A stretch of 64,000 bases of DNA from Naegleria gruberi (Eukaryota): assembly GCA_000004985.1 (NCBI GenBank), contig GG738858.1; one strand, given 5' to 3'. Both the position numbers and the translations under genes were made by a program. The notes beneath the pieces were generated by a model. The model made no database searches, was not told where the DNA came from, and saw only the letters and a list, made by a program, of their open reading frames with translations. Of the stretch, positions 22,787 to 53,574 are shown piece after piece. Position 1 is the stretch's first letter. Every line of letters begins with the position of its first letter.

Positions 22787-22821
<35 letters not shown>

Positions 22822-23067: not shown

Positions 23068-24189
23068 GCTAAGAAGCCTCAAGATATTGACTCCTCTTCA
23101 TCTGATGAAGATCTCCCAGCAGTTGAAGTAGAATACCCCACAACACCAGTGAAAGCAAGAAAACAACAAGCTGCTAAGAAGCTTAGAAAGTTAAAGGCCA
23201 TGTCACCTGTAGCTAATAGAAATAAGCGCAAACAATCTACTTCAGTTTCATCATCTAACAGTGCCTTAGATGATGGTATTTCAACTGTTGTTTCCAGTTC
23301 GTTGCTAAGCAATTCAACTTTGTTGGATAGTTCTTCAACTGCACCCTCTTCGTCAAACAATTCGTCTTCTTCCAATTCAGGTAGAGATAGTTTTGCCAGT
23401 AGTTCATCTGAACATGATATCATGGCGATCAAAGCCCAAATGCAAGAAATGATTGGAGTTTTGAGAACCGTAACAGGAAATATCTCTGAACTTACTAAGA
23501 AAGTTCAGGAGAGAGAAGAAGAATCAGATGATGATTTTGTTAATCCAGAAGCTATATCTCCAGAAGTTTGGTTACGTCAAACTTATAGAGACCTTAGAAG
23601 TTCTTACAATGTTCCTTCATCTATTGGAGATGATTTATTACTTTCTGCAGTATCCTCCGAGATACTTAAAGACCGTAAACAAGAGGAGACCAAGAGAAGA
23701 ATTCAATATTTGCTCCTTAAATACAAGGATGTGATTTCCAAGTTTGCCCCAGACATTAGATTGGATGAGATTAACAGTATTGGTTATTCTAAACTAGTAG
23801 AGTTAACTCAAATCAAAATTGAATTGTTGGAATATGCATTGAATTCTCCACTTGATTTTACAGTCATGACAGAGATTACAGAACTTTGTAGAATGATTTG
23901 CAAAGTTGAAGCCCTCTTCCTTAAAGAAGGTTTACAAGTTTCCACTTTCGATGTTGGTAGAGAATTCCTTAACAGATACATTTCTACTAATAGTTTCGAA
24001 ACTGCTGCCGAAAGTGAACTTCATAATATTAGAACAACATATCATTACTACAAAGCAACCAAGCAGCAACAAGGTCCAAAGGGAATTACCAAGAAGTATT
24101 CTAAGAAGAAACCGTTTCAAAAGAAAAACAATAAGGGTCAAGGAAACGGTGGTAAATTCCAAGGAAAAGATAAGGATAAGTCAGAATGA
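23062..24189 (+). CDS. Retroelement ORF1 (Gag-like; Ser-rich N-terminus, coiled-coil, basic C-terminus)
   Basis: ATG inside repeat A1. 375 aa. A basic KKYSKKKPFQKKNNKGQGNGGKFQGK tail is typical of nucleic-acid-binding Gag. Confidence 0.6.
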   Translation: MVAKKPQDIDSSSSDEDLPAVEVEYPTTPVKARKQQAAKKLRKLKAMSPVANRNKRKQSTSVSSSNSALDDGISTVVSSSLLSNSTLLDSSSTAPSSSNNSSSSNSGRDSFASSSSEHDIMAIKAQMQEMIGVLRTVTGNISELTKKVQEREEESDDDFVNPEAISPEVWLRQTYRDLRSSYNVPSSIGDDLLLSAVSSEILKDRKQEETKRRIQYLLLKYKDVISKFAPDIRLDEINSIGYSKLVELTQIKIELLEYALNSPLDFTVMTEITELCRMICKVEALFLKEGLQVSTFDVGREFLNRYISTNSFETAAESELHNIRTTYHYYKATKQQQGPKGITKKYSKKKPFQKKNNKGQGNGGKFQGKDKDKSE

Positions 24190-26062
24190 CTCTTCCACTC
24201 CCTCCTTCCAAGGAGGAAGATTACAACAGTTTTGGAAAAAGTGGCAAATCTTCCCCAAAACTGTTGCAGAATGGATAAGAGAGGGTATTCCAATCCATTC
24301 AGAAAAAGAAAAATGGATCGATATTCCACTAAGATCTCATTTTTCAGAAAAGGAAGATTCATGGTTAAAGAGCGAAATCTCAGATTTACTCAAAACCAAT
24401 ATTATAGAAATTGGAAACAAGGACACTGTCATAAATCCGATTCACGTGGTTCCGAAGAAAGGCAAAGACCAGTTTCGTCTAATCCTAGATTTGAGATCCA
24501 TAAATGCTGGTATAAACAACGACTCATTCAAAATGGATCATATTCACAAAACTCTAAAGTTTCTATCAAAAGACATGTTAGGAATCAAAATAGATTTGAT
24601 GAAAGGTTATCATCACGTTCCAGTGAAGGAAACAGATCGAAAGTTATTGGGATTCAGGTACAACGGCCAGATTTACCATTACAAGTGCCTACCATTCGGT
24701 CTGAACATTGCTCCAAGATTATTCTCCAAGATAATGAAGGTCTTAGTTCAAAGATGGAGAGTAAGAGGAATCTCGGTATTCATTTATTTAGACGATATCT
24801 TAGTGGTAAATCATTCAAAAGATCAGTTGATCTTAGACAGAGATATAGTTCTAAAGGATTTAGAAGAGTTTGGATTCCTCATTCAAAAAGACAAATGTTG
24901 TTTAAATCCAACTCAATTAATAGAATACCTAGGAGTTTTGTTAGACTTTCATCAAGGTTTGGTAAAAATTCCAGAAGACAAAAGGATTACAGCTTTAGAA
25001 TTCATAGAGGAGCTACTCAATGCTTCCCAGAAACGGCTTTATGTTCCATGCAAGAGAGTTGCCAAGTTCCTAGGAAAGTTGGAATTTCTAACAATTGCCA
25101 ACAAGTACCTTTCACCATTCATGTGTCGTCTTCGAAAGAACATGGTTTCAGTAGTATCAGGAAGAGGTTGGCACGCATCAATGCAAATTCACAAAGGCGC
25201 ATTCAAGGATTTATTGATTCTAAGGGAGTTAATTCAAAAGAACGATGGTCATCCGTTCGAATTGGATTGGATTCTCCCAGTGATTGTGAATTCAGATGCA
25301 ACACCTCAAGGTTTCGGCATTCACTCAGGTTCAATCGTTACTGTTGGAAAGTTCAATGGAGAAGAGCACATCAATGTCAAGGAACTAAGAGCCTTACTGC
25401 TTTATTTCAAACAAGCAGACGAATTAAATCTTTATCCAGATTTCACAAATTTCGAATTGAGAGTAGACAACATGGTAGCCGTGGCATATCTAAAGAAGGG
25501 TTATGGATCAAAAGACGATCTCGCAAAGATAGCAAGAGACATCTCAAAGATTCTAATGAGAAGAAATTGGTGGATTTGCAAAGTGATTTACATCCCATCC
25601 AAACAGAATTTCCTAGCAGACAGGTTGAGTCGATTGATGGATTGGGGATCCACCAAGGAACTAATCGAATTAGTCAACCAAGAATTTGGAATACACCATG
25701 TGGACAGATTTGCAACAACGAGTTCGGCAACTACCCTTGTATTCAATTCATGGAAAGAGAACGACGCGTTCAAAAGTCTTTGGGAAAAAGAACTAGTGAG
25801 TTATTGTGTTCCTCCAATAGGATTGATCAGTCAAGCTCTCATTCATCTTATCAAATCCAGATCAATAGCGACATTTGTAATTCCAGAATGGAGCTCCTCG
25901 ATTTGGTGGCCTCTACTCTTAAAGCTATTAAAGAAGAGAAAAAGTATCACAAGAAGGATGCTTTTAATCAAACTATTATCCGAATTATGGATCAAATTCG
26001 AAGGAACGACGTTCATAATTGCTCATCTGGATGGAAACTTATACTTCAAACCAGAGATTTAG
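23906..26062 (+). CDS. Retroelement pol ORF: reverse transcriptase, RNase H, and the DIRS-type C-terminal HVDRFAT..PP..WW domain
   Basis: The RT motif is FIYLDDILVVNHS (YxDD). The RNase H motif is NFLADRLSR. The C-terminal segment has HVDRFATTSSATTLVFNSW..YCVPPIGLI..PEWSSSIWWP. The frame is open from 23906 with a TTG in the track. The first ATG is at ~23951. It overlaps gag by ~280 nt, so expression is by frameshift or internal start. Confidence 0.75.
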   Translation: MKPSSLKKVYKFPLSMLVENSLTDTFLLIVSKLLPKVNFIILEQHIITTKQPSSNKVQRELPRSILRRNRFKRKTIRVKETVVNSKEKIRISQNDSSTPSFQGGRLQQFWKKWQIFPKTVAEWIREGIPIHSEKEKWIDIPLRSHFSEKEDSWLKSEISDLLKTNIIEIGNKDTVINPIHVVPKKGKDQFRLILDLRSINAGINNDSFKMDHIHKTLKFLSKDMLGIKIDLMKGYHHVPVKETDRKLLGFRYNGQIYHYKCLPFGLNIAPRLFSKIMKVLVQRWRVRGISVFIYLDDILVVNHSKDQLILDRDIVLKDLEEFGFLIQKDKCCLNPTQLIEYLGVLLDFHQGLVKIPEDKRITALEFIEELLNASQKRLYVPCKRVAKFLGKLEFLTIANKYLSPFMCRLRKNMVSVVSGRGWHASMQIHKGAFKDLLILRELIQKNDGHPFELDWILPVIVNSDATPQGFGIHSGSIVTVGKFNGEEHINVKELRALLLYFKQADELNLYPDFTNFELRVDNMVAVAYLKKGYGSKDDLAKIARDISKILMRRNWWICKVIYIPSKQNFLADRLSRLMDWGSTKELIELVNQEFGIHHVDRFATTSSATTLVFNSWKENDAFKSLWEKELVSYCVPPIGLISQALIHLIKSRSIATFVIPEWSSSIWWPLLLKLLKKRKSITRRMLLIKLLSELWIKFEGTTFIIAHLDGNLYFKPEI

Positions 26063-26967
26063 GGATGTTGGTTTCGATTAAGGAAGAAACCTTCAAACTT
26101 TACACTAGAAACTATAATGGTTTCTTATGGTTTATTACTGCATTCAATATTTCAATGGATGACCCTTATGCTATTGAGTATTATGCAGCTTATCTTACAA
26201 TTCAAGGTCAAACATCTCGTGTTGAAGCCTTGAGACCATCCCTTCAATTTTGGGCCAATATTGAGAGAAGAGTTTTTCCAATTTCATGGTCTTATGATAA
26301 GATTAAAAGAGGAATTACTCTTATTTGGTCCTTGATTGATAGAAAAGCTTTGAAACGTGATCCAATTTTCTATCATCATATTGAAGGTTTCATTCAGAGA
26401 AAAGATCATTATGATCCTTTCATTTTCAAACTCACTAGTGCCATGTTAGTCATTGGTTTCAGACTTTTCGCTAGACCAGGTGAATTAGCTAGACTCAAGT
26501 GGGGTTATGTTACAAAGCTTAGAAATGGTAACATCAAATTAGATCTCAGTGGTCACAAAACAGATTTCTTTCTACTAGAAAAGCCGATTACTATTGACAA
26601 GCATCTTGAAAATCCTTCAGTGTGTCCAGTGAAATTGCTTTTTGATTACATAGACACTGTACAGCATTTCAAAAAAGCAGATTCACCATTGTTTTCATTG
26701 CAGGACAATATTTTCTTCAACACTGAAGATGTTTCTCAACTTATCAAGAATGCTATGTTCTCTGTTGATTCAGAAATCACTGTTTCTGGTCACAGTTTAC
26801 GTATTGGTGCAACTACTGAGAGTATTATCAAGGGAATTCCTACTCAGGATATTATTATGGGGACTAGACATAAGGATGTGAAATCTTTACAACCTTATCA
26901 AAGACAAGAAGCTCTTGCAGCTCGCCACTTGTCTACTACTCTCCTTTCTCGGGACAATATCCATTAG
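24232..26967 (+). CDS. Retroelement ORF with a C-terminal tyrosine recombinase domain (~26063..26967); its N-terminal 1.8 kb is an overprinted open frame over pol
   Basis: The C-terminal 300 aa contain ARPGELARL, GHSLRIGATT (HxxR) and a downstream Tyr, as in DIRS/Ngaro YRs. The upstream part is a 600-codon stop-free frame overlapping the RT frame. It translates as R/S/K-rich low complexity. Confidence 0.55.
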   Translation: MEKVANLPQNCCRMDKRGYSNPFRKRKMDRYSTKISFFRKGRFMVKERNLRFTQNQYYRNWKQGHCHKSDSRGSEERQRPVSSNPRFEIHKCWYKQRLIQNGSYSQNSKVSIKRHVRNQNRFDERLSSRSSEGNRSKVIGIQVQRPDLPLQVPTIRSEHCSKIILQDNEGLSSKMESKRNLGIHLFRRYLSGKSFKRSVDLRQRYSSKGFRRVWIPHSKRQMLFKSNSINRIPRSFVRLSSRFGKNSRRQKDYSFRIHRGATQCFPETALCSMQESCQVPRKVGISNNCQQVPFTIHVSSSKEHGFSSIRKRLARINANSQRRIQGFIDSKGVNSKERWSSVRIGLDSPSDCEFRCNTSRFRHSLRFNRYCWKVQWRRAHQCQGTKSLTALFQTSRRIKSLSRFHKFRIESRQHGSRGISKEGLWIKRRSRKDSKRHLKDSNEKKLVDLQSDLHPIQTEFPSRQVESIDGLGIHQGTNRISQPRIWNTPCGQICNNEFGNYPCIQFMERERRVQKSLGKRTSELLCSSNRIDQSSSHSSYQIQINSDICNSRMELLDLVASTLKAIKEEKKYHKKDAFNQTIIRIMDQIRRNDVHNCSSGWKLILQTRDLGMLVSIKEETFKLYTRNYNGFLWFITAFNISMDDPYAIEYYAAYLTIQGQTSRVEALRPSLQFWANIERRVFPISWSYDKIKRGITLIWSLIDRKALKRDPIFYHHIEGFIQRKDHYDPFIFKLTSAMLVIGFRLFARPGELARLKWGYVTKLRNGNIKLDLSGHKTDFFLLEKPITIDKHLENPSVCPVKLLFDYIDTVQHFKKADSPLFSLQDNIFFNTEDVSQLIKNAMFSVDSEITVSGHSLRIGATTESIIKGIPTQDIIMGTRHKDVKSLQPYQRQEALAARHLSTTLLSRDNIH

Positions 26968-27103
26968 TTTATTTATTGTTGGTTTTCTTTTAAGAAACAT
27001 GTTCTTATCGAAGTTTACTGAGATAAAGTAGTGTTTCTTGAAAACAACAATTGAATAAACTAATAATAGAAAGTATGCTCAAAAAAATTGTCATACTATG
27101 GTC
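26957..27103 (+). repeat. Internal B1 (26957..27000) and A2 (26999..27103) junction of the split direct repeats
   Basis: B1 equals B2 (27778..27821) and A2 equals A1. The B1/A2 abutment is the hallmark internal junction of Ngaro/PAT-like elements. Confidence 0.8.
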
Positions 27104-27777
27104 CCACCCTTGCCCACCCTCTATTATTATTAGTTTATTCAAATCAAAGGTTCTAACCTTTGTCCTTAATACTTTGGAATGTGATTTTTTAACCAATCCT
27201 CAAATATTTTCTCAATTGATTGAAAGATTTCACTCTATTTGTATTATTGAAAGATGATTGTTATCATCTTTTTATCTTTGTATTATTATTTGATATTTGA
27301 CATCATTTATTGATGTTTTTTATCATGATTGGTGATCTAAAACCAATTGTTGGTGATCTAAAACCGACAGATCAACTTTATGTTGATTAGAAGGTATCTG
27401 ATACCTTTCCCTTACTATTAGTAAGGCAATATGTACTGAACATACCTCTTTTCTCATTCTCGTTTTGATTCGTAAGTGTCAAGACGGTTGAGTAGGTTTT
27501 TTAATTCTTAACTTTTTAGTTTTTACCGATTTTTTTTTTTTTTCCTACAAGAGTAGGTTTTTTTATATGGGAGTTGTTTCTCCAAAAAACAACTTGGTTT
27601 ATTGTCAGATTGCTTTAATTTAGTTTAGTTTTTGCTTTTTGTTAAGAAATCATAGTATGATTGTATTGATTAGTTTATTTAATTTCTGGACCTGCTGAAT
27701 AAAGCTTAATGCCTAAAAACAGCAGTAACCAGGCTACAAACTACCTAAGAATAGGTAGAAGTTGTAGTGTGAGCTTT

Positions 27778-27821
27778 ATATCCATTAGTTTATTTATTGT
27801 TGGTTTTCTTTTAAGAAACAT
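27778..27821 (+). repeat. Split direct repeat B2 (element 3' terminus)
   Basis: A 44-bp copy identical to 26957..27000. Confidence 0.8.
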
Positions 27822-29928: not shown

Positions 29929-30242
29929 TTGTGTTGCAGTCATAAAATATTAACTTATTGCTGTTAGCATTTATTAAGGTTAAATTGTATTGATGAACAA
30001 TTTATTGTGCTCCCTATGATTTTTCTTCTTGTTAACCATCATTCTCACTATTTTCCCAATCATATTGAGCTAGTAATTCTGTAATCTTTTCGTGTAATTA
30101 AAAAATTAGGAAAAGCTATCATCACACCATGCCATGGATGGCTGGCCTGTTTATCAGGAGGAATCAGTAATTCCTTTATTCACAGAGGCACCACTCTGGT
30201 CCAACTCTGCTGATAGTAATAAAGAATAAGAAAAAAGGTTAG

Positions 30243-30315
30243 CTCCCCCTGGTGGGCTCGAACCACCGACCTGCAGATTAACAGTCTGACGCTCTACCGA
30301 CTGAGCTAAGGGGGA
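30243..30315 (-). tRNA. tRNA-Asn(GUU)
   Basis: Minus-strand read: TCCCCCT-TA-GCTC-AGTCGGTA-GAGC-G-TCAGA-CTGTTAA-TCTGC-AGGTC-GGTGG-TTCGAGC-CCACC-AGGGGGA-G. Canonical cloverleaf with anticodon GTT. No intron. Confidence 0.85.
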
Positions 30316-31854: not shown

Positions 31855-33086
31855 ATGCTCAAGAATACATTGGCTCTATCAGGCGTTGAATTTGATGATG
31901 AAGATCCAGTGTTAGATAGTGAGAACCCTAAAATTCTCTTGTTGGGATCAAGTAAGTTCTTGTACATTCGCATACAATAAACGAAAGTTCAGATGATTGT
32001 GGAAAGACAACGCTCATGAATAGAATACTTGGAAATGCAAAACAAATTGCAATGCAATACATTCATAACGATATTTTAAACAATATTCGAAAGGTCTGCG
32101 AAAAGTGTGTCAATACTCAATCCATTTCGTCTCGTTTACATCAGCAATACCTTTCGTATTGCAAAACACTGATTGAATCAGCTCCCAAGAAAGACTTGGA
32201 ACAGTCACCAACCAATTCGAAAACAATGAATTCATTTCCATCAAAATCTTCACCAGCTTTGCTTGTTCCAAAAACGGCAGAAATGATCATTGATTTATGG
32301 ACGAATTGTTTAGTTTTCAAAGAAACTTTTGACAAGTATAGGGATGAATTGAATGTGAGTGATTCGTGTGAATATTTCTTCAATTCTTCAACGTTGGATC
32401 GATTGTGTAAGGCTTCGAATATTCCCAATTTTGAAGATTCTCTTCGTATTCGAATGGAAACTAAAGGAGTCGATACAAGAAAAGTGTACTATAGTGAAAC
32501 AGAAGGATTTCCAAAACTCCAACAACTAGCTATGGATGAGAAATTCCTCAAACAATATCCTAACTGTATTTCTGTATTAGATTTTGGTGGAAATTGCCGA
32601 AAGAAATGGAAAGGTTACTTCCACAACATTACATTATGTGTATATTTAGTCAATTTAAGTTCGTTTAATAAGAAATCAAAAGAAAATCCAGAAAAGAATG
32701 AACTTGTTGATAGTTTAGAACTGTTTGAAGAAATGGTCAACCATGAAAGTTTCAACAATATTCCAATTCTTCTCCTATTTAATAAGGTCGAGAGATTTTC
32801 AAGTCTAATTGAGAGTGGAAATGATTTATGTAAAATATTTCCAGAATATGAGAATAGAGGGCAATCTGCTAAAGAACGAATTGAATCTTCCCTTTCTTTT
32901 CTAAAATTGAAATTTGAATCAAAAGCTTGGTCAAGGAAAGATTATTTACATTGTCGATTTGTTTCATTGCTGAATAATCAGGATTCCAATCAAGTGCTCA
33001 TGGAAATGCTAACACTAAGTAAATTACTGAAGGAAGATTTTGTTTCAGATAATATTGACAAGAAGAAGAATTGTCTCATCATGTAA
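31855..33086 (+). CDS. Divergent heterotrimeric G-protein alpha-subunit-like GTPase (paralog 1), 2 exons
   Basis: Exon 1 is 31855..31951 (MLKNTLALSGVEFDDEDPVLDSENPKILLLGS, TCA A|gtaagt). The 41-nt intron is 31952..31992 (..ttcag). Exon 2 is 31993..33086. G-motifs present: P-loop GSNDCGKTT, switch-I R..TKGV, DFGG (weak DxxGQ) and NKVE (NKxD). There is no N-terminal MGxxxS or Cys lipidation motif. Confidence 0.65.
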
Positions 33087-34745: not shown

Positions 34746-36124
34746 GATGCTTCGCTCCACAGGTGATCGTTCTGAAGTCGATCTAGACGAAATGCTAGAG
34801 CAAGATCAAGCTAAAATACTTTTATTTGGTTCAGGTATGTTGTAATGCAAGCCAAATAGATTAAATTATTATTCGAAACTTAGGCGATAGTGGCAAAACA
34901 ACCTTGTTAAAACAAATTCACGGAATGACATTTTCCAAATATTACAATCCAACACGTCTCGTGGGATCCATTGTTCAAGACATTCTCAAGAATGTAAGAT
35001 TAGTTTGCGAGAGATGCATCGAGGGAGGACAGATTAGTCAGGAAGAGTTTTCACAATGTGACTATATCATTCAGATTGCAAAATCAACGAATAGCACCTC
35101 CACACCAAAGAAATCCACAAGCACAACTCAGGATTCACCACTTCCTAGCTCACCAATCAACACGCCAGATAAGAGATCAAGTTATGGAGCTAATGCATCA
35201 TCACCTGTTGGTGGTGGTGGACATGGTGCTTCACCTGGAAGTGGAGCTGGATCACCATCTCGCATGAATAACTTGGTGAGTAAGATGGACGATGATTTGC
35301 CTGATAAGATTCTGAGATTATTGAATCATTCAGAAATATTTAGGAAAACTGTCGAATCATGCAGGGAGAATGAAAGATTGTCGGATGGAATTGAACATTT
35401 TTTGTTAAATTCATCAAATTTGAGAAGAGTTTGTGAGTTTAATTATGTTCCTTCGATAGCAGATATTGTATATTCAAGACAGAAAACAGTGGGTCTCATA
35501 GAAACGAGTATAAGATATCATGAAGTTGATGGATTTCCAAAGAAGGAAATTCACAACTTTAACGATTTGGAAAAACAATTTCCTAGAACCTTAAAACTTG
35601 TTGATACCGGTGGTCAATCATCTGAAAGAAGAAAATACAAGAATGTTTCATTTAGTAGTGTAAGAGCCTGTGTTTTTGTGGTCAACATGTCAGGTTTCAC
35701 TAAAAGTCTATACGAGAATGAGAATGTTAATGATCTGATTGATTCCATTGAACTTTTCAAAGAGTTATTCAATCAGCCATTCTATGAAAATGTACCAATA
35801 CTATTACTATTCAATAAGATGGACATGTTTAGCTATCAAATTCAGAAAGGAAAAGATTTAAGTTCTCTCTTTCCAGAATTTGACAATAATGCAACGATTT
35901 TAGAGGAAAAAGTTGATAACTCTCTCAAATTCCTATTCAAAAAGTACAAGGATACTCTAAATTCTAATCCAATACGAGTGCAATACATGCCAACCGCTCT
36001 AACTGATTTGAAAGATGCTCAGAAAGTATTCGAAAGAGTTATGGAACTGAGCGAATTACTAACTTGTCCCGAAAGAAACAATGAAATGACTTCTAATGAT
36101 AAGAAAAAGTGTACCATCATGTAA
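34746..36124 (+). CDS. Divergent G-alpha-like GTPase (paralog 2), 2 exons; exon 1 carries an apparent +1 frameshift
   Basis: Exon 2 is 34884..36124 with (G)DSGKTTLLKQIHG, RQKTVGLIE, LVDTGGQSSERRKY and LFNKMD, and looks intact. The ATG at 34746 (MLRSTGDRSEVDLDEMLE) is homologous to paralog 1 (MLKNT..). A single extra C near 34800 (gagCcaag) puts QDQAKILLFGS|gtatgt in another frame. The 49-nt intron is 34835..34883 (..acttag). Confidence 0.55.
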
Positions 36125-36148: not shown

Positions 36149-37828
36149 TTATTGAGATGGAGTTGAAGGATTCAACCATGGTTTAGTCACTCTTGATACT
36201 GCCTTTTCAGATTGGAGGAAGGAGAGCAAGAGGCCATAATTAGTGATTGGAACACCTGCTTTGGATAGGTCAGAGAGACGGGCATTCATCTTTTGCTTAT
36301 CAATCATACATCCTCCACAGTGAATAATGAGTTTGTATTGGGAGAGATCCTTAATAAGCTGATACTCTCTGCCAAAGACAATATCCACCTTGATATTTCC
36401 CTGTCCAAATCTTTTTTCAATTGCTCTTGGTATTTGAACAGTACCGATATCATCTGCAATTCTGTTGTGATTACAAGCTTCACAGAGTAAGACTGAATCG
36501 CCTGGTTGGAGAGCTTTGAATGCTTCAATTCCTTTCAAAAATTCTGAAAGTCTTCCATTACTCATAAAGTTAATCATAATGACACTGAATGTAGTGATAT
36601 CAATAATACTCTCCTTTGTTGCCTCATCAATAGTCCATGGATGCACAATATCCATAGCTTGCGAGTCGGTAATTAAGAGTTGTAATTTTCCATTTGAATT
36701 AAGAGTTTTGATGGCTTCGAGGAATCTCTTCTTCTCCTTTTCCACAAGCTCCTTATCCGAACTTCTTGCATGTTTCAAATTCATTCTATATGAAAATACA
36801 TTGCTATACTCCCTGAGTAAATATTCATGAACCATGGCTTGAGGTTTGAGTAATCTACCAGATGGTGTCTCCTCATCCATTGGAATATTCAAAAATACAG
36901 TAGAGTTTTCCATTAAATTTGGAAGTAATCTTGTTGGATACATTGGAGTAGAGCTTGCCTTCATTTTACTCTTCTTGTGGCAATCTTCAATGAACTTGAT
37001 ACATTTGGTGTGAGCAATTTTTGATTCCAAATCCACACATGTAGTTCCACAGAAGTACTTATTCATTTGAACATTTCCCTGTTGCTCAAATTCATTGACT
37101 TTCAAATCAGTTTCAATCGAATCCAGCTTATCACTCAAACTCTCCACAGATGATCTCTTCAACTCGGAAACATTGAATATAATACAGAATGGTCTTTCAT
37201 TCTTTTCACACTCACCAGTCAACCATTTGGCTTGTTGAACACTGCTACCATTGAAAGGATCCACCACTACAACCACAATATCGGACTCTTTAAGGGCAAT
37301 CAGTGTTTTTTGTCTCTTCTTTTCGCCAAGATCTGATGCCTCATCAGTACCTGGTGTATCAAATAACTTTGTTGGACCAATACCGTGCAACTCCATAGTT
37401 GTCATCTTTACATCAGCAGTTGTACCAGGTGTAGAATCCACAATACTAGTATTTGAATTGGTCAAACAGTTCATCAGAGTTGATTTTCCACTATTCATAG
37501 CTCCAACAATTGCAATATTTGTCCTTTCAATGTAAATCGAGCCAATATTATTAGCACTATCACTTAAACTCACTCCAGAATGGAATAATTGTTTAGAATT
37601 CATTGAAAATTCCTTCATCATTATCTTTGTATTCATCATCATTTTCCATTCCGATGATCTTTTCACAGCTGATAATAATGGAAAATCCAACAATGAATTA
37701 CATTGTTGTATTGGCAATGATCTCCTCACAAGAGGTGAGGAACACAATGTTCGGATCAAGTGTTGTTGATGTGATTTCATTTTTTTAAAGTGCTTTTTCA
37801 TAAAACTAACCTTTTTAGTAACTTTCAT
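36149..37828 (-). CDS. hydF: [FeFe]-hydrogenase maturation GTPase HydF with a basic, Ser-rich N-terminal extension (organellar targeting-like)
   Basis: ATG confirmed at 37828. The GTPase region has G1 IAIVGAMNSGKSTLMN, G2 DSTPGTTAD and G3 LFDTPGTDE. The C-terminal FeS-binding signature is CEACNHN ... HCGGC (CxH...HCxxC), which is diagnostic of HydF rather than Era/EngA-type GTPases. The ~100-aa K/R/S-rich leader (MKVTKKVSFMKKHFKKMKSHQQHL...) precedes the GTPase region. Confidence 0.7.
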   Translation of the reverse strand: MKVTKKVSFMKKHFKKMKSHQQHLIRTLCSSPLVRRSLPIQQCNSLLDFPLLSAVKRSSEWKMMMNTKIMMKEFSMNSKQLFHSGVSLSDSANNIGSIYIERTNIAIVGAMNSGKSTLMNCLTNSNTSIVDSTPGTTADVKMTTMELHGIGPTKLFDTPGTDEASDLGEKKRQKTLIALKESDIVVVVVDPFNGSSVQQAKWLTGECEKNERPFCIIFNVSELKRSSVESLSDKLDSIETDLKVNEFEQQGNVQMNKYFCGTTCVDLESKIAHTKCIKFIEDCHKKSKMKASSTPMYPTRLLPNLMENSTVFLNIPMDEETPSGRLLKPQAMVHEYLLREYSNVFSYRMNLKHARSSDKELVEKEKKRFLEAIKTLNSNGKLQLLITDSQAMDIVHPWTIDEATKESIIDITTFSVIMINFMSNGRLSEFLKGIEAFKALQPGDSVLLCEACNHNRIADDIGTVQIPRAIEKRFGQGNIKVDIVFGREYQLIKDLSQYKLIIHCGGCMIDKQKMNARLSDLSKAGVPITNYGLLLSFLQSEKAVSRVTKPWLNPSTPSQ

Positions 37829-37971: not shown

Positions 37972-39462
37972 TTAGAAGGATAGGTTGAGAATGGATATTT
38001 CTGGTGGGCAGAATAATCGAAGAGGATAATGACTTCCTAAACCAGCAGAGGTGTGAATAAATTGTCTCCTCTCGATTTTGTAAGTTCTGTAAATGAGTTT
38101 GATTTGATAATCATCAGCCGAGTCGACTACATCAATATTTCTAGCTTGTTGTTTGTGATGATGGAGCACACTGTCGATGAGTGTAGAATCGTCCTGCAAT
38201 CTCAATTCATATAGACCAACTCCCCATTCCCAATACTTGCAAACATTCAATAGTCTTTGAACAATTCTCAATCCACTAATTCGTTGCCTTACAAATTTCC
38301 ACAGAGTAACCTTCTTGTAAATGAAAATAATTATTGGAATTATAGGAAGGTAGGTGAATATTCCTTCATTCATCTGATGAACCTGTTCATAGGAAAAATG
38401 ATGTTGAACAAAATGATCAAATGTTGCTTCCTTTACACTAAGTTTCCAAAAGAGTCCTAGTACGTTTTTCAGAATTATTGAAGGTATTGGTAATGTCACT
38501 TGGCCACCTAAATATTTGATAAATGAAATATGTTAAATATGTTAAAATTTAAAGAAAATATCGAACATACCATGAGTGTGTCCACACAAAACCAAATCAA
38601 AATGGAAAACGTCATTCTTAATCCAAGCAACAGTGTCTGGGTTGTGGCTCAATACAATTCTCAAAGTATTCTCCTTGATAGGACTCTCGTTCATTTCCTT
38701 TACAATTTTATGATAATTATCCCAATAGAGTGGACTGTAAAAATCTAAAAATCCCCACAACTCAATATCAAACTTGAATTCCTTAGTTTCCTTTGTAACT
38801 TTAGCAAAGAATTGATGATTATTAGCTTTTGAACCAGCATCTAATATTGTGACAGCTCTTGATAATTTTTTGATTACCTCCTCCTTATCGAGAGGATGGG
38901 TCTTACTCTCATCATGATTTCCTAACACTGCAAAAACTCCCAACTCTGAATATTTTGATAATTTAGAGAAGAAATTATCCACAACCCAATCCACATCAAC
39001 CTTGTAAAATTTATCAACAAAATCTCCAGTCAATACTATCATGTCAATATTTGGAATGTATTCAATTTCCACAAGAATATCCTTCAATTGTTGTTTGCTA
39101 ATCTTATGATATCGAACGTGTCGTCTCAACCAATACCAACAAGCCCAGATTTTAGTATAATACGAACCTGCTGATCCCAACCAATCTGGAGGATCTGCAT
39201 AATAATCAAAATGAAAATCAGTCAAATGTAATATTTTCAGTCGGCGTCTATTTACATGATTAGTTTTCAAGAAGGAAATTGCATCTACATCAGACAAATT
39301 AATATAATGTTCCTTGATATATAATTTACTAAACACATTCAACAATGGAAAGGTAATCCACTTGAATAATTGTACCAAAATTATTAAATATTCATATAAC
39401 AACATTCCGATCACTGATAAAAACGTTATGTTTCCATGTTTCTGCTTTGATAGTTTTTTCAT
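37972..39462 (-). CDS. Membrane-anchored metallophosphoesterase (calcineurin-like phosphoesterase; GDxxD/GNHD/GHTH), 2 exons
   Basis: ATG at 39462. An N-terminal TM helix is present. Exon 1 is 39462..38571, ending CAT G|gtatgt. The 63-nt intron is 38570..38508 (..atttag). Exon 2 is 38507..37972, beginning GT GGC CAA GTG (..CGHTHG-GQVTLPIPSI..). The phase-1 join was verified. Confidence 0.65.
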
Positions 39463-39906
39463 TTTTTTTTAATTTAAAAATCAAGAAATGTAGTTGAATG
39501 ATCAATTTCGATTTTTCTTATTTGCAAATATTATTGTAAATAGATTCAAGTAGTTGAAGCTCTAGTTGAAATACTACGTGTTTTCAATATTGTTGTGTGA
39601 TCATTGGAAAATAAAACGTGTCTTTTCCAGATTGTGGAAAATTCAATGCCTCGAATACTATGGAATATTGATCAATTTCTCATATTTATATATTTGAATA
39701 GGAGTATTGGAAGATTGGACAAGTTTTAAAGGTCAACCAAGAGTTTCACATGTGATGATGTTGAACAGTCCAGTCCCGTTGTATTTAAAATTTTTACATC
39801 TTCAAGTGACCTTTAGCATGCTTCATGAGATGAGCTGTTTTTTTCACCTTTGAAATCTTAAATGGTAAATCTTCTCCAAAAAGTATCTGTAAATATATGT
39901 ATCTGT

Positions 39907-40381
39907 CAGAGTCCCCCATAGCCTTTTGGAGATTTGAAACATATTTGTAACTATCTTCTATTCTTTTATTTTACTTGACGCTTTTAGATATAATGACGTT
40001 TTTATTTTGTTTCCGTTACACGTTTCCCTCTCCAAGAACCTCACAATTTGTTCGGCCGTTACGTTTCTAATATTATTTTTAATTAATTTTTTGTAACGGT
40101 CTTGAGTATTTTCATCTTCTGATGGCACGGAAGGAGAATAATTTGCTGGATTATTTGTCTTGAATTAAAGAATAATGGAAATGTATCTCAGGATAATATT
40201 CCAAATACTGGTGGTGTCTAGGGTGGTGTAGCTTCATCATTGATGAATTAATTACATTCCCTGCTGTTGATATTGTTGCCGATAGATGTTGTGAATTACA
40301 AAATCACTCATTTTTTTATCGTGTCAACCTCACTATACATAAAAGTCATTTTACAGAGTGTTCGTCGCATGGGGGACTCTG
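39907..40381. mobile_element. hAT-like MITE (~475 bp): TIR CAGAGTCCCCCAT / ATGGGGGACTCTG with a perfect 8-bp target-site duplication GTATCTGT
   Basis: Left end reads GTATCTGT|CAGAGTCCCCCATag. Right end reads gcATGGGGGACTCTG|GTATCTGT. An 8-bp TSD and a CAGAG-type TIR start are hAT hallmarks. There is no ORF inside. It lies in the 1.7-kb divergent promoter region between the phosphoesterase and Myb genes. Confidence 0.55.
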
Positions 40382-41221
40382 GTATCTGTTGAAAGTTATA
40401 CAGTAAAATTTTGTAATCCATCTCATTGTCTTCAATTTTACCTTTGAAAATGGTAAAACTCAAGATTCAACGATTTTCTCTGAAGAGACACTACCAACTA
40501 AAAAGGTGACCAAGAAAACGTTGAAAACCAACAACAGAAAATTGTAAATGAAAGTCATGGAAAATTACCAAGCGAAAATGCATAATAAGAACACGGAACT
40601 CGATATTGTTCTTTCACTGAAACATGCAACTTAAAAGTTTATTAAGAAGGCATAAGCTGGTGTACTCTCTAATTCAAAGATAGAAGACATGCAGGCTGAG
40701 TTGTGCAGATGAAAAATTGCGCGGTTCTTTGTGTTACTCTGTTTGGTCTCACTCTCCTCATCCATCATAGATCCAAAAAAAACGCAGGAGCAAAACAGAA
40801 AGCAAACACAGTGAGGGTTCTTCTTTGCTGATGGAAAATTAAAAACACAACAACAGAAAAAAATTATTATTATCGCCTGTTCTCCTATTGAATAGCTTGC
40901 CTGCCCTAATTATAGTGGTGCTGTGCTGCTTGAGTATTCTTCTATTATTATTTTAAAAGTGTATGATTAATATATTATTTGGTGCATCAAACCAACAACC
41001 TCATTGTACACCAACAACAACAACACATTGTCTTCCTATCTTCAGAAGAAATTTTGTAAACGGAATAATTATCCATCAGAAGAAGAAGGATTTAAATTAT
41101 ATATTATCACTTGAAAATTATTGATATCTATTCACGATTTTGATTACACATTTCGATCGAATAATATATCTGAAACAACTATTTGTAAATAATCAGCAAC
41201 AACATCATCAAACACTTTCCT

Positions 41222-43465
41222 ATGCAAAACCTTCCTCTTGCTTCTTCATCTGTCGATTCAAATAATCTAGTGCTAGTCATGAACGGAAATCCAACCACCA
41301 CGACAACAAGCACCACTACAAATAACAATAGTAGTGTCAACAATAGGCAAACTCCACAACAACCATTATTTATGAACCCTTCCCAATCCTTCCTTCCAAA
41401 ACAGCAACAACAACAACAAAACATGCCACAACAACAACCAATAATATTCTTCCAGAACCACCTCATGCCTCAAACACAAAATTCTCTCCCAACTACAAAC
41501 GGTGCAAACTCTACAAGTAGTACACCAGTAGCATCTAATGCATCAAATACGAGCACCTCTCAGAATGGAGAGAATGTTGTAGATGTGGAAAACTTTGCCA
41601 AATTCCAACAAGAGCAAGCAAAACAATTCAGTTTATTTCAACAACAACAAGCTGCTGCCTTCTTACATTTGGCCATTCAACAAAAACAATTGGAAGTCGC
41701 CCAATTCGCTAGTGCCATGAATATGCCGCTTCCAAATAGCTTCCTTATACCTAATAACAACACATCTACCAATTTCCATCCTGGAGGTCTTGTAAATTCG
41801 CAACCTATTTTCATTCCAAATAGTCATAATCCAGTCACACCTTTTGACCAGAATTCACCAATGAGTGAATCCATCCTAAGTTCTAGCCCATCCAACATGA
41901 CGGGTTTACATCATGTACATCACGCAGCTTCCTCCTCCTCAGATTTTGACGCTGAATCAACAGCTGCATCAGTAAGTGATAAGAGTCAAGTCTTATTATC
42001 CAACCAACGAAGAACAGGTCCTGTAAGAAGGTCCAGAAAAGGAGGTTGGTCAGAGGAAGAGGATGAAATGCTGAGAGCTGCAGTACAAACATATGGAGGG
42101 AAGAATTGGAAAAAGATTGCGGAAACACTTCAAAATAGAACTAGTGTGCAATGTTTGCACAGATGGCAAAAAGTATTAAATCCAAACCTTGTAAAGGGAC
42201 CTTGGACAAAGGAAGAGGATGACAAGATTTTACAACTTGTTAAAACATATGGTCCAGAAAATTGGAGCATGATCGCATCACATTTACCAGGAAGAATTGG
42301 TAAACAATGTAGAGAAAGATGGTACAATCACTTGGATCCTAGTATAAAGAAGGAACCTTGGACAGAGGAAGAAGAAACACTTCTTCTCGATGCTCAAAGT
42401 AAACTTGGAAATAAGTGGGCTGAAATTTCCAAACTCATCGTTGGACGTACAGATAACGCTTGCAAAAACCATTTCAATTCACTGATCGCTAGGGAAAAGA
42501 AGAAGGATACAACTAAAGAGACATCAAAATCAACAGAGCCAACACCAGTAAGAAAAACCAAAAAGACAACAAAGAAGGAAGATTCTGCTCTCAGTCGTGC
42601 CAGACACAAGAGATCAATCTCCGATACAGCATTCTATCAAAACTATCAATATGAATCGAGAGATTCTGGTACATTGACACTTTCTCCAATGGCTCAATCT
42701 AATAATTCCACTGGTTCTGGAGGAAACTCTCCAAATGCCAATAATTTGCACCATGCAAACAACAACACACTTTCAACCAACCACTTTTTCTCGAATTTAG
42801 CTCCTCCTACTCTCTTCCCATTCAATAGCAACCACATGATGATGCAAAACCCTAATTTAATGCAACAAAATGTAATACCAATCTTTAGACACAACAATGT
42901 ACAAAAACAACCACTACCAGCTTCTCAGAACGCATTTACACAGAATAACATCATTCCAAACATTGATATTTCCTCACCTGGTCTTTCGACACCAACAGAT
43001 CTCTTCCATGATTTGTCAGCTTTTGAGGCAGTGGTTCCTTCTAATAATAATAACAATGGAAATGGAGATGTAGATGTACTTGCAGATGTTCAAGATACAC
43101 TAATCAATCAAGTTGGTTCTGGGTTGATAAATAATTTCGATGTATTCGAAGCTCATGAAAGTGAAGTTTTAATACACAGCGAAGATAGTAACGATGAAAT
43201 GAACATTACACCAACACCTGGATCAAGGAATAGACCATCAACAGTTTTTAATGAAGATATGGACTTTAATGAATTTGATGGAGAATCAGATCTCAATAAT
43301 TTCCTGGATGATGATAACAATGATGATCAAATCAATAGCGGCCTATTCCCAATTCCTTTTGCTGACAGAGAAACCAAGAGAAAGAAGTTTAATCACGTTT
43401 TTCATAACAGATCGATATCATTCGATGTTTCCCAGTTAGGACAAAATAAGGACTTTTTCCTTTAA
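41222..43465 (+). CDS. c-Myb-like R1R2R3 (3R) MYB transcription factor
   Basis: Three tandem Myb repeats with regularly spaced Trp (WSEEEDEMLRAAV..WKKIAE; WTKEEDDKILQLV..WSMIAS; WTEEEETLLLDAQSKLGNKWAEIS). They are flanked by Q/N/S/T-rich low-complexity regions. ATG confirmed at 41222. Confidence 0.85.
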   Translation: MQNLPLASSSVDSNNLVLVMNGNPTTTTTSTTTNNNSSVNNRQTPQQPLFMNPSQSFLPKQQQQQQNMPQQQPIIFFQNHLMPQTQNSLPTTNGANSTSSTPVASNASNTSTSQNGENVVDVENFAKFQQEQAKQFSLFQQQQAAAFLHLAIQQKQLEVAQFASAMNMPLPNSFLIPNNNTSTNFHPGGLVNSQPIFIPNSHNPVTPFDQNSPMSESILSSSPSNMTGLHHVHHAASSSSDFDAESTAASVSDKSQVLLSNQRRTGPVRRSRKGGWSEEEDEMLRAAVQTYGGKNWKKIAETLQNRTSVQCLHRWQKVLNPNLVKGPWTKEEDDKILQLVKTYGPENWSMIASHLPGRIGKQCRERWYNHLDPSIKKEPWTEEEETLLLDAQSKLGNKWAEISKLIVGRTDNACKNHFNSLIAREKKKDTTKETSKSTEPTPVRKTKKTTKKEDSALSRARHKRSISDTAFYQNYQYESRDSGTLTLSPMAQSNNSTGSGGNSPNANNLHHANNNTLSTNHFFSNLAPPTLFPFNSNHMMMQNPNLMQQNVIPIFRHNNVQKQPLPASQNAFTQNNIIPNIDISSPGLSTPTDLFHDLSAFEAVVPSNNNNNGNGDVDVLADVQDTLINQVGSGLINNFDVFEAHESEVLIHSEDSNDEMNITPTPGSRNRPSTVFNEDMDFNEFDGESDLNNFLDDDNNDDQINSGLFPIPFADRETKRKKFNHVFHNRSISFDVSQLGQNKDFFL

Positions 43466-51337: not shown

Positions 51338-53574
51338 TTAAAGTATTTTCTTTTCGAGTTGTTTGAGAATATTTTCGAGTAACTCAACAATTTTTGTGGT
51401 TCTGTTTTTGCACTTGGTTTCATCGAAATCTGAGAGATTAGTCAATTTCTTGACTTCGTTGTTGATATTCAATGGTTCCTTATTCAAGTATTTCAATCTG
51501 TTTTCATCTGTGGTATCCTTTGTGAATGATTTACCACATAGAGTAAAGTTACCAATTTGGAGATAGCAATTATCCATCTTCTTAGCCAATAATGGTTTGA
51601 TATTGCATAACTTGAGATTACGAGGATATTGCAAGTCGAAATTAGATGCATTCGGATCAGAAAGGAAGTCTTCAATGATTGGTAAAACAGTTGAGAAAAT
51701 CTTTTTAAGCTCATTACTTTGTTTCTTCTTTGATGGGGCAGTGCTGTCATTATTGGCTAATCTAATGATCTTCTTGCTCCATTGTGAATAATTGGATTCC
51801 TCACTGTCATCACTTGCCTTTTTGCCTCCCTTTTTCTTGCTCTTTGTCTTGGTCAATATGGTTGTGAGTTCCTTAAAATCAACAACTTTGTTGTTCAAAA
51901 GATTACTGATCTCAGCCATCATGTAAGAGAACTTGACCTTGGCAAAGTCACACAAGCAAACTTGGAGTACGTGATTGTGCCAAATTGCAATTAATTGCAA
52001 TACATCTGCTTCTTCAACCTTGGAACTGACATTATAGGTGAGAAAGTGTTGGCCATGTTCCTTGCAATGTGCAATAGCAATAAGAGTTGCTAGGACTATA
52101 TCTGAGGCCACTTTTTGTGCCTTTGGGAGGTAATTTTCAGCAATGTGGTGTGTTCTGCTGATCATCTTGTTAATAAGGTGATTCTTCTCATTATTAGTGG
52201 AGAATACAGGACGATTTGCTGAACTCTTTGATTGATGACCAATGAAAATAGGAGTCATGTAATTGTTCATGAAAGTTTCACCAAGATTTTCAATATTGAC
52301 AGTTGTCTTCATGTGGGAGGCAATTTGGTCAAGAAGTTTCAAATATTCTCTATTGCTAACATTCACATTCTTTGTTGGGTGTAGCAATTGATGAATGTTT
52401 TCAAGAATATTTGAGAAATCTTCGCCAACTTCTTGATACATGTGATTCCAAGAATCAACCATTTCTTGATTCTTTTGGTGATTGTGGCAACCAAATAATC
52501 TTCCAAAATCAAGCTTGAGTTTGTCCATTGGTGACAAATCCTTTCCTCTCAAATTCAAAGTACCAAAGATTGCTAGTTCATTAGCATGTTCTGGAACTGT
52601 AATGGTAACAACAATACAATTGTGACTCAAGAAGTGAATGAAATCAACCATTTCTTCTTGTTTCTTGAAAAGCTTTTTGATTTTAAGGATGGAATGCAAG
52701 AAGTTTTTGGCACAATTCATGGCAGAAGTGGAAGTAATCTCCTTTGCTTCTTCGAGCTTGGTGATTATTTCATCAACCTTGCTCTTCTTAAAGTCACCCT
52801 CGTCCATACTGGCCTTCTTTAAAATGTTAGCAAATCCCTTCTCTTCGACAATGTACTTTTTAAAGAATGTCTTTTCCTTTCCTGCTACACCTTCTTCATC
52901 ATTGCAAACCTCAATTCTTGCTTGACCTTTCAGAGTTCCCTTGTGAATCTTCAAGTAAACTTTGCTAATTGTCTCAAAATTTTCTTCATACTTTTTCTTA
53001 TTGATACATTCTCTGAGGGCAGAGTAAAGAATGGAGAGAGAGGTCAATCTTTGTTGACCATCTATTACTTGTTGTCTGTTACCTGCCTTTAGGACAATGG
53101 AGCCAATAAAGTAGCTGCTCTCTGGTTCATTCTTGTTATACTCATTGTAGACATCATCAAGAAGGTCCATAATGTTGTCGATCTCCCAAGCATAAGGACG
53201 TTGGTATTCAGGAATAGAATAGCACAATTCAAAAAGATTGTCAATTGCTCTATTGTTGGTGGTCAACTCCCAAGCTCTTCTTTCTGAGGCAACTATCTTT
53301 GGAGGAACAGGTGGACTGAATGTGAGTGGAGAATCTGTTGAAAATGGAAGAGAGGTATCACTCTTAGAGCTTGATGGAGTTGCTGGTTGTGAAGAAGAGG
53401 AAGGAGTACTGGCGATAATGGTTTGTTCCTTCTTGGTCTTCTTCTTGTCTTTCTTTGGGGTAATGTCAGAGCAGTCTCTGGTGTTTTTCTCTTCTTGTCT
53501 ACCCCCTTTGACCACTCGGGAACCCCTGCTTCACATTCAACTTCATGAACTATTTCACTATTGAAACAGTTCAT
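51338..53574 (-). CDS. DUF262 (GmrSD-N / ParB-like nuclease fold) domain protein with a low-complexity N-region, 2 exons
   Basis: The DUF262 motifs are IPEYQRPYAW ... IDGQQRLTSL and a downstream LNLRGKDL block. The main frame has no ATG before the domain; the track start is GTG. Exon 1 is 53574..53503 (ATG, MNCFNSEIVHEVECEAGVPEWSKG). The 50-nt intron is 53502..53453 (gtagac...ccaaag). Exon 2 is 53452..51338, beginning KDKKKTKKEQ. Phase 0 on both sides. Confidence 0.6.

What the first reader, a model, noticed from the sequence alone, without database searches (positions are those of the whole stretch)
39899..40389. hAT-like MITE with a perfect 8-bp TSD in a divergent promoter region
GTATCTGT|CAGAGTCCCCCAT ... 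ATGGGGGACTCTG|GTATCTGT. An exact 8-bp duplication and 13-bp TIRs beginning CAGAG are the hallmarks of hAT transposons. The 475-bp interior has no ORF. The intact TSD indicates a relatively recent insertion into the 1.7-kb region between the phosphoesterase and Myb genes.
Basis: seen in the sequence. Interest (0 to 1): 0.5.

Follow-up and report, generated by a model that had tools for sequence, protein, structure and literature searches.

The report
Small hAT-like transposon insertion in Naegleria
A 475-base non-coding mobile-DNA insertion with the end structure typical of hAT transposons sits between two genes of the amoeba Naegleria gruberi; it is an ordinary kind of element, and whether it belongs to a multi-copy family could not be tested here.

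Summary
A 475-bp element (39907-40381) has perfect 13-nt terminal inverted repeats, CAGAGTCCCCCAT / ATGGGGGACTCTG. It is flanked by an exact 8-bp direct repeat, GTATCTGT (39899-39906 and 40382-40389). No such structure appeared in 100 dinucleotide shuffles of the window.

The window is Naegleria gruberi. The element lies in the 1759-bp divergent intergenic region between a Metallophos phosphoesterase gene (ATG 39462, minus strand) and an R1R2R3 Myb gene (ATG 41222, plus strand). It has no ORF longer than 56 aa, no protein homologue and no Rfam match.

An 8-bp duplication plus short repeats starting CAGAG fits a non-autonomous hAT-superfamily transposon, comparable to maize Ds1, Drosophila Mar or the ends of Tol2. 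The heptamer CCGTTAC/GTAACGG occurs three times in the whole window, all inside the element. This recalls the AAACGG transposase-binding repeats of Ac.

Two points remain untested because no tool reaches the rest of the N. gruberi genome: multi-copy family status and an autonomous hAT partner. The window holds no second copy and no transposase. Metagenome, viral and prokaryote scans found nothing.

Verdict: a real transposon insertion, probably hAT-type, and of low novelty.

The parts
39899..39906 (.). Left target-site duplication, GTATCTGT
   Evidence: (family D3). It is exactly 8 bp and does not extend further.
39907..39919 (+). Left terminal inverted repeat, CAGAGTCCCCCAT
   Evidence: I6: 13 nt, 100% complementary. 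One search shows the 13-mer occurs only at the two ends of this element in the window, even with 2 mismatches allowed.
39907..40381 (.). Whole 475-bp non-coding element: 34% GC, 13 CpG, longest ORF 56 aa
   Evidence: No Rfam match at E<=1, no tRNA, no protein homologue in any of six frames.
40013..40019 (+). Internal heptamer CCGTTAC, copy 1, followed by ACGTTTC. Candidate subterminal transposase-binding repeat.
   Evidence: The heptamer occurs 3 times in the 64-kb window, all inside the element.
40056..40062 (+). Internal heptamer CCGTTAC, copy 2, overlapping ACGTTTC
40093..40099 (-). Internal heptamer, copy 3, inverted (GTAACGG on the + strand)
40369..40381 (-). Right terminal inverted repeat (ATGGGGGACTCTG on the + strand)
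   Evidence: (I6).
40382..40389 (.). Right target-site duplication, GTATCTGT

Best explanation
This is one insertion of a non-autonomous cut-and-paste DNA transposon, most likely of the hAT superfamily, in the Naegleria gruberi genome. Inferred mechanism: a hAT-type DDE transposase encoded elsewhere in the genome recognised the 13-bp terminal inverted repeats, and probably also internal CG-containing repeats such as CCGTTAC. It excised the element and joined its two 3' ends to the target with an 8-bp stagger at GTATCTGT. Gap repair then produced the 8-bp duplication. The insertion landed in the shared upstream region of a Metallophos gene and a Myb gene, 445 bp and 841 bp from their start codons. 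It accounts for 483 of the 1759 bp of that region. Shown: the terminal-repeat and duplication anatomy, its non-randomness, the absence of coding capacity, the host organism and the gene context. Inferred: the superfamily, the transposase, the role of the internal repeats, and membership of a repeated family.
For: An exact 8-bp duplication abuts perfect 13-nt terminal inverted repeats. There was 1 such structure in the window against 0 in 100 shuffles. It is also the only element in the window with YARNG-type ends and an 8-bp duplication. The ends start CAGAG, like Tol2 (CAGAGGTGTAAA at both ends, with 8-bp duplications; PMC4818426) and the hAT MITE Mar (CAG(G/A)GGTAGGC, 11-bp repeats, 8-bp duplications, 610 bp; PMC3517528). 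The size and layout match maize Ds1: about 400 bp, 11-bp repeats, 8-bp duplication, little else beyond a few AAACGG repeats (PMC3260210). The target has T at position 2, half of the Hermes/Ac-type nTnnnnAn preference (PMC10368747). The interior is CpG-rich for this genome, with 13 CG against a mean of 6.2 per 475-bp tile, placing it in the top 4%. The heptamer CCGTTAC/GTAACGG occurs three times within 87 bp, and these are its only occurrences in 64 kb. This is analogous to asymmetric subterminal transposase-binding repeats in Ac and Hermes. There is no coding capacity or homologue and no known RNA family. The orthologous Myb-Metallophos spacer in N. lovaniensis is only 742 bp against 1759 bp here, with gene order conserved, consistent with gain of DNA in N. 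gruberi. The genome does carry mobile elements: a DIRS/PAT-like retroelement lies in the same window, and MuDR and Kolobok are reported for Naegleria.
Against: No second copy of the termini or interior exists in the 64-kb window. No hAT or other DDE transposase ORF lies in the window. There were no matches in JGI metagenomes, IMG/VR or GTDB genomes; the viral 15-mer hits are three independent chance matches without a partner repeat. No paper in the library documents hAT elements or MITEs in Naegleria. Position 7 of the duplication is G rather than A, and positions 4-5 are TC rather than TA, so neither the Ac-type nor the Buster-type target consensus is fully matched. The heptamer repeats lie 107-193 bp from the left end only, with no counterpart at the right end. 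An 8-bp duplication is not unique to hAT; the P superfamily also gives about 8 bp (PMC3706591). The intergenic DNA of related species does not align, so no true empty site was seen.
Confidence: 0.7

Rival explanations
1. It is a non-autonomous cut-and-paste transposon, but of another superfamily that can make 8-bp duplications: P, Mutator/MULE, Merlin, Zisupton or Novosib. The mechanism would be the same in outline, with DDE transposase supplied in trans and staggered integration, but the enzyme family would differ.
For: The duplication length alone does not discriminate: P and hAT both give about 8 bp, and the MuDR, hAT, P and Kolobok group gives 4-10 bp (PMC3706591). A full-length MuDRF element has been reported in N. 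gruberi (PMC3164196), whereas no hAT has been reported there in the searchable literature. No transposase could be tied to the element.
Against: [quoted passage not shown] Kolobok, also known in Naegleria, makes TTAA duplications with 5'-RR...YY-3' termini (PMC9587614), and neither feature fits. The CAGAG terminus fits the hAT YARNG pattern (my background knowledge) and is identical in its first five bases to Tol2 and Mar. The short 13-bp repeat and the internal NAACGG-type repeats also resemble Ac/Ds.
Confidence: 0.15
2. The insertion is a transposon, but its biological significance is regulatory. It delivered three canonical Myb recognition sites, TAACGG (matching YAACGG), into the upstream region of a c-Myb-type gene, possibly creating or replacing an autoregulatory input or affecting the divergent Metallophos promoter.
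For: TAACGG/CCGTTA occurs 11 times in 64 kb, and 3 of these lie within 87 bp inside the element (Poisson P about 3e-5, a post hoc figure). They are the only YAACGG sites in the 1759-bp intergenic region. The downstream gene encodes three Myb repeats. The N. lovaniensis orthologous spacer has two YAACGG sites 140-170 bp upstream of its Myb start, at L001 positions 7843 and 7872, out of 9 in 21.6 kb.
Against: The link to Myb is a post hoc motif match. That YAACGG is the c-Myb site comes from my own knowledge, and nothing is known about the binding specificity of this Naegleria protein. The sites lie about 1.1-1.2 kb from the Myb ATG. The same motif is explained just as well as a transposase-binding subterminal repeat (Ac uses AAACGG). 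No expression or binding data are available.
Confidence: 0.07
3. It is not a mobile element at all. On this view, a chance 13-nt inverted repeat happens to be flanked by an 8-bp direct repeat produced by local slippage or duplication in an AT-rich promoter region.
For: GTATCTGT is locally repeated: a third copy lies 16 bp upstream at 39883-39890. The flanks share another imperfect repeat, TTTYACCTTTGAAA...ATGGTAAA. Real sequence also has more inverted 13-mers (104) than the shuffles (mean 15). No second copy was found anywhere.
Against: The joint structure occurred in 0 of 100 shuffles, and about 0.004 are expected even from the real count of inverted pairs. The repeat arms are GC-rich (8 of 13 bases) in a 33% GC genome and are unique in the window. 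The direct repeat abuts the inverted repeat to the base on both sides. Inside those boundaries the composition and CpG content differ from both flanks: 2.7 CG per 100 bp against 1.1 and 1.5.
Confidence: 0.03

Closest known systems
Maize Ds1 (non-autonomous Ac/Ds element, hAT superfamily)
   Same: Ds1 is about 400 bp and non-coding, with short perfect terminal repeats (11 bp against 13 bp here) and an 8-bp duplication. It shares almost nothing with the autonomous element apart from the ends and a few NAACGG-type internal repeats (PMC3260210). This element has three TAACGG sites.
   Different: The terminal sequence differs, and there is no sequence similarity. Ds1 is a demonstrated multi-copy family (331 copies in B73) mobilised by a known transposase. 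Here neither copy number nor partner is known. The host is a heterolobosean amoeba rather than a plant.
Mar and Vege MITEs of Drosophila willistoni (hAT, Buster family for Mar)
   Same: These are 610-bp and 884-bp AT-rich, non-coding elements with 11-12-bp terminal repeats and 8-bp duplications. The Mar repeat starts CAG(G/A)G. They were first assigned to hAT on repeat and duplication features alone, as here (PMC3517528).
   Different: Mar duplications fit nnnTAnnn, whereas this one (GTATCTGT) does not. The Mar assignment was later backed by many copies and a reconstructed transposase, which is not available here.
Tol2 and Hermes (autonomous hAT elements)
   Same: Both Tol2 ends begin CAGAG and make 8-bp duplications. 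Hermes has 17-bp terminal repeats, 8-bp duplications with an nTnnnnAn preference, and asymmetric short subterminal repeats bound by the BED domain. Here the target has T at position 2, and the internal repeats are likewise asymmetric.
   Different: Those elements are kilobases long and encode a transposase, while this one is 475 bp with none. Position 7 of the target is G rather than A.
DNA transposons already reported in Naegleria (Kolobok, MuDRF)
   Same: Same host genus, and both are cut-and-paste DDE elements.
   Different: Kolobok makes TTAA duplications with RR...YY termini, and MuDRF makes 9-bp duplications. Neither fits the 8-bp GTATCTGT duplication and CAGAG termini seen here.

Membership tests
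hAT superfamily (non-autonomous member) | 8-bp target-site duplication | tested here: met
   An exact GTATCTGT lies on both sides and is exactly 8 bp long.
hAT superfamily (non-autonomous member) | Short terminal inverted repeats (about 10-25 bp) starting 5'-YARNG | tested here: met
   The repeat is a perfect 13 nt starting CAGAG. Tol2 (CAGAGG...) and Mar (CAG(G/A)G...) have the same first bases. The YARNG consensus itself is from my background knowledge.
hAT superfamily (non-autonomous member) | Target preference nTnnnnAn (Ac/hobo/Hermes group) or nnnTAnnn (Buster group) | tested here: inconclusive
   GTATCTGT has T at position 2 but G at position 7, and TC at positions 4-5 (consensus). One insertion cannot test a statistical preference.
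hAT superfamily (non-autonomous member) | A cognate autonomous element with the same ends that encodes a hAT transposase (BED finger, RNase-H-like DDE domain, hATC dimerisation domain) | not testable with these tools
   None lies in the window (Pfam scan of all 29 ORFs of 180 aa or more plus one shorter neighbouring ORF).
hAT superfamily (non-autonomous member) | Repeated short subterminal motifs that bind the transposase | tested here: inconclusive
   CCGTTAC/GTAACGG occurs 3 times and ACGTTT 3 times, 84-193 bp from the left end (ACGTTT 90-160, CCGTTAC 107-193), and the heptamer is unique to the element in the window. No equivalent cluster lies at the right end, and binding is untested.
MITE (miniature inverted-repeat transposable element) | Small size, no coding capacity, terminal inverted repeats plus target-site duplication | tested here: met
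   The element is 475 bp with a longest ORF of 56 aa and no homologues. The end structure is as described above.
MITE (miniature inverted-repeat transposable element) | Belongs to a family of many near-identical copies in the genome | not testable with these tools
   The window has a single copy. No hits were found in the metagenome, viral or GTDB collections. The genome-wide count in N. gruberi is unavailable.
Kolobok superfamily | TTAA 4-bp duplication and termini 5'-RR...YY-3' | tested here: not met
   The duplication is 8 bp (GTATCTGT) and the termini are CA...TG. The definition is from PMC9587614.
Mutator/MuDR superfamily | 9-bp (8-10) duplication, usually with long terminal repeats | tested here: inconclusive
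   The duplication is 8 bp and the terminal repeat only 13 bp. The N. gruberi MuDRF element has 9-bp duplications. This makes membership unlikely but does not formally exclude it.

The most novel reading that the evidence does not exclude
The transposon carried a cluster of three canonical Myb recognition sites (TAACGG) into the upstream region of a c-Myb-type transcription factor gene, rewiring its regulation or autoregulation in N. gruberi. The N. lovaniensis orthologue has two YAACGG sites in its own, shorter promoter. If so, this would be an example of transposon-borne binding sites acting on the factor's own gene in a deep-branching protist. It might also be the first described hAT-type non-autonomous family in Heterolobosea.
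Probability: 0.07. Interest if true: 0.45.

Novelty: new member of a known kind. Interest (0 to 1): 0.15.

Why it matters
The finding mostly matters for annotation. It marks a clean DNA-transposon insertion in a gene-dense protist genome where few mobile elements have been classified. Its termini give an exact probe (CAGAGTCCCCCAT) for finding the rest of the family and its transposase. If the family is active or polymorphic, it could serve as a strain marker or a source of a transposon tool for Naegleria, which lacks good genetic tools. The position in a divergent promoter and the TAACGG cluster upstream of a Myb gene raise a testable, though speculative, regulatory question. None of this would surprise a specialist, since hAT elements are reported from all eukaryotic supergroups (abstract of PMC3942097, seen).

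Tried and rejected
- **Second copy in the window.** BLASTN of the element against the 64 kb gave only weak AT-rich matches. The best, at 22775-22856, is a (TA)n palindrome. A search for the terminal 13-mer with up to 4 mismatches found no partnered hits.
- **Generic scans for other structures of this type.** Scans for terminal repeats plus duplications in the window found nothing convincing. The 13-nt inverted repeat with a 6-bp flank repeat at 5786/8196 lies inside a long ORF (6371-9775, 1134 aa) and is chance. One scan timed out and was rerun.
- **Public collections.** Two metagenome scans were run, one with the first 25 nt and one with both ends separated by a 434-464 nt gap. Both gave 0 hits. 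The GTDB genome scan gave 0. The viral scan with both ends gave 0. The viral 15-mer scan gave 6 loci, which reduce to 3 independent chance matches; four of the contigs are the same virus, and none has a partner repeat.
- **Protein route to other copies.** The six-frame translation of the element found no hit among 5.8 billion proteins. An exact look-up of the 56-aa ORF found nothing.
- **Reaching the N. gruberi genome or other strains.** Exact look-ups of the Myb ORF and of the N. gruberi HydF protein both failed.
- **Empty site in relatives.** The N. lovaniensis locus (L001) and a metagenomic Naegleria contig (L008) keep the Metallophos-HydF order, and L001 also the Myb gene. Their intergenic DNA does not align with N. 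gruberi. Willaertia has a different neighbouring gene.
- **RNA gene hypothesis.** There was no Rfam hit at E<=1 and no tRNA. The folding z-score of about -3.4 on both strands is explained by pairing of the terminal repeats.
- **Literature.** The N. gruberi genome paper is not held in the library.

Full report
**Observation**

GTATCTGT occupies 39899-39906 and 40382-40389. Directly inside these copies lie 39907-39919 CAGAGTCCCCCAT and 40369-40381 ATGGGGGACTCTG, a 13-nt arm pair that is 100% complementary with 449 nt between the arms.

Neither repeat can be extended by one more base, so the element is exactly 475 bp (39907-40381) with an exactly 8-bp flanking duplication. A third GTATCTGT lies 16 bp upstream at 39883-39890. 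It is part of the original target region and does not affect the boundaries.

**Is it more than chance?**

- The 13-mer is found only at these two places in the window, even with two mismatches allowed.
- A custom scan counted 104 perfect 13-mer inverted pairs within 50-3000 bp in the real window. Exactly one of them has an 8-bp flanking direct repeat.
- In 100 dinucleotide-preserving shuffles (mean 15 inverted pairs each), none had such a flank.
- At the window's composition (about 33% GC), an exact 8-bp flank match has probability of about 3e-5. Even the real number of inverted pairs therefore predicts only about 0.004 such structures (my arithmetic).
- A second scan seeded on 7-9-bp direct repeats with YARNG-type ends found only this element.
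- The one other candidate, at 5786/8196 with a 6-bp flank repeat, lies inside a long ORF (6371-9775, 1134 aa) and is a coincidence.

**Organism and context**

The neighbouring ORF at 36149-37828(-) is 100% identical to the annotated Naegleria gruberi [Fe]-hydrogenase maturation protein HydF. Pfam assigns 38542-39462(-) to Metallophos and 41222-43465(+) to a three-repeat Myb protein.

TBLASTN against the N. lovaniensis orthologous locus (L001) places the two start codons at about 39462 and 41222. The element therefore sits in a 1759-bp divergent intergenic region, 445 bp from the Metallophos ATG and 841 bp from the Myb ATG.

Gene order Myb / Metallophos / HydF is conserved in N. lovaniensis, where the same spacer is only 742 bp. 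A metagenomic Naegleria contig (L008) ends 708 bp upstream of Metallophos. The spacers do not align between species. The size difference is consistent with DNA gain in N. gruberi, but no true empty site was seen.

**What the element contains**

- The longest internal ORF is 56 aa with a GTG start.
- A concatenated six-frame translation found no protein at E<=0.001 among 5.8 billion sequences.
- There is no Rfam match at E<=1 and no tRNA.
- The strong folding z-scores (about -3.4 on both strands) arise from pairing of the terminal repeats.
- The interior is 34% GC but unusually CpG-rich for this genome: 13 CG against a mean of 6.2 per 475-bp tile, which is the top 4%. Per 100 bp this is 2.7, against 1.1 and 1.5 in the two flanks.
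- Nine of the CpGs cluster 73-222 bp from the left end, in repeated motifs. CCGTTAC occurs at 40013 and 40056, and inverted (GTAACGG) at 40093. ACGTTT occurs three times. The first two heptamers form a longer repeat, CCGTTAC(AC)GTTTC.
- The heptamer occurs three times in the entire 64-kb window, all inside the element. TAACGG occurs 11 times in the window, and three of these are here.

**Mechanism**

The anatomy is that of a cut-and-paste DNA transposon insertion. An exact duplication of fixed length abutting short terminal inverted repeats is what staggered integration by a DDE transposase followed by gap repair leaves behind.

Among eukaryotic superfamilies, about 8-bp duplications are typical of hAT and P (PMC3706591). 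The CAGAG terminus matches the hAT pattern:

- Both Tol2 ends begin CAGAGGTGTAAA and give 8-bp duplications (PMC4818426).
- The hAT MITE Mar has 11-bp repeats CAG(G/A)GGTAGGC and 8-bp duplications. It was first assigned to hAT on exactly these criteria (PMC3517528).
- Hermes has 17-bp terminal repeats and 8-bp duplications with an nTnnnnAn preference. Its asymmetric short subterminal repeats are bound by the BED domain (PMC10368747).
- Maize Ds1 is the closest analogue in layout. It is about 400 bp with 11-bp repeats and an 8-bp duplication, and apart from the ends it shares only a few AAACGG transposase-binding hexamers with Ac (PMC3260210).

The TAACGG-containing heptamers here differ from the Ac hexamer by one base and are plausible transposase-binding repeats. 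That is analogy, not evidence. The single target site matches only half of the Ac-type consensus (T at position 2, G instead of A at position 7) and does not match the Buster-type consensus. One site cannot decide this.

**What could not be shown**

The interpretation as a MITE with a hAT partner needs other copies and a transposase.

- The window has neither: there is no second copy and no transposase domain in any of the 29 ORFs of 180 aa or more.
- The rest of the N. gruberi genome is outside every searchable collection, and exact look-ups of N. gruberi products failed.
- Scans of JGI metagenomes and GTDB genomes were empty. The IMG/VR scan for both ends was also empty, and the 15-mer scan gave only chance matches.
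- Ten literature searches found no description of hAT elements or MITEs in Naegleria.
- The library does report Kolobok (TTAA duplications, RR/YY ends), a MuDRF element with 9-bp duplications and DIRS-like sequences in this genus. The first two do not fit the present element.

**Rivals**

- Another 8-bp-duplicating superfamily (P, MULE, Merlin, Zisupton, Novosib) cannot be excluded without the transposase. I give it 0.15.
- A non-mobile origin is very unlikely given the shuffle test, the base-exact junctions and the composition shift at the boundaries. I give it 0.03.
- A regulatory overlay is speculative. TAACGG is the canonical c-Myb recognition sequence (my background knowledge). These three sites are the only YAACGG sites in the spacer upstream of a Myb gene. 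N. lovaniensis has two YAACGG sites just upstream of its Myb orthologue. The match is post hoc, the sites are more than 1.1 kb from the ATG, and the transposase-binding reading explains them equally well. I give it 0.07.

**Age**

Zero differences in 21 paired positions (13 in the terminal repeats and 8 in the duplication) bound divergence since insertion at roughly below 0.07 substitutions per site at 95% (my inference). 'Recent' is plausible but only loosely constrained.

**Verdict**

The feature is a real insertion of a small non-autonomous DNA transposon in N. gruberi, most likely of the hAT superfamily (confidence 0.7). The MITE label, the hAT partner and the recency remain untested.

It is a new member of a known kind, or possibly already present in curated repeat libraries that I could not consult. 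It is of low general interest (0.15). Its value is mainly for annotation and as a probe for the family and its transposase.

Noticed in passing
window 22963-27821 (+): A tyrosine-recombinase (DIRS/PAT-like) retrotransposon. Overlapping ORFs at 23062-24189, 23906-26062 and 24232-26967 carry RVT_1 (E 5e-26), a weak Dam-like methyltransferase hit (E 9e-4) and a weak Phage_integrase hit (E 7e-4). Split direct repeats are 100% identical: 105 nt at 22963-23067 and 26999-27103, and 44 nt at 26957-27000 and 27778-27821. A 2011 survey listed N. gruberi DIRS1-like elements as uncertain (PMC3266345). This copy looks largely intact.
   Followed up: partly
window 39883-39890: A third copy of the duplicated 8-mer GTATCTGT lies 16 bp upstream of the left duplication. 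The pre-insertion target therefore read GTATCTGTAAATATATGTATCTGT.
   Followed up: yes
window 39842-39872 and 40436-40460: The two flanks of the insertion share an imperfect motif of about 30 nt, TTTYACCTTTGAAA(N0-5)ATGGTAAA. The right copy is itself a near-palindrome (TTTTACC...GGTAAAA). The two copies would lie about 110 bp apart without the insertion. The 14-mer is not enriched in the window overall, with 9 hits at up to 2 mismatches against 6.6 expected. It may be a promoter element.
   Followed up: partly
L001 7843 and 7872 (N. lovaniensis): Two YAACGG (Myb-type) sites lie 140-170 bp upstream of the N. lovaniensis Myb orthologue, out of 9 in the 21.6-kb locus. In N. gruberi the only YAACGG sites in the corresponding spacer are the three inside the transposon.
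   Followed up: partly
window 51338-53515 (-): A 725-aa ORF has a GmrSD_N restriction-endonuclease N-terminal domain (E 4e-32). This domain is best known from bacterial type IV restriction enzymes, so the gene may be a lateral acquisition in this amoeba.
   Followed up: no
window 56456-59626 (-): A 1056-aa ORF is made of about 22 DUF4116 repeats (E 3e-185).
   Followed up: no
window 32016-33086 (+) and 34904-36124 (+): Two G-protein alpha-subunit genes lie about 2 kb apart on the same strand, probably a local duplication. A tRNA-Asn(GTT) gene lies at 30242-30315 (-).
   Followed up: no
window 5786-8196: A 13-nt perfect inverted repeat (GTGATGATGAATT...) with a 6-bp flanking repeat AAATTG mimics a transposon. 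It spans part of a 1134-aa ORF (6371-9775) and is judged to be chance; the shuffles gave 17 comparable structures in 100 runs.
   Followed up: yes
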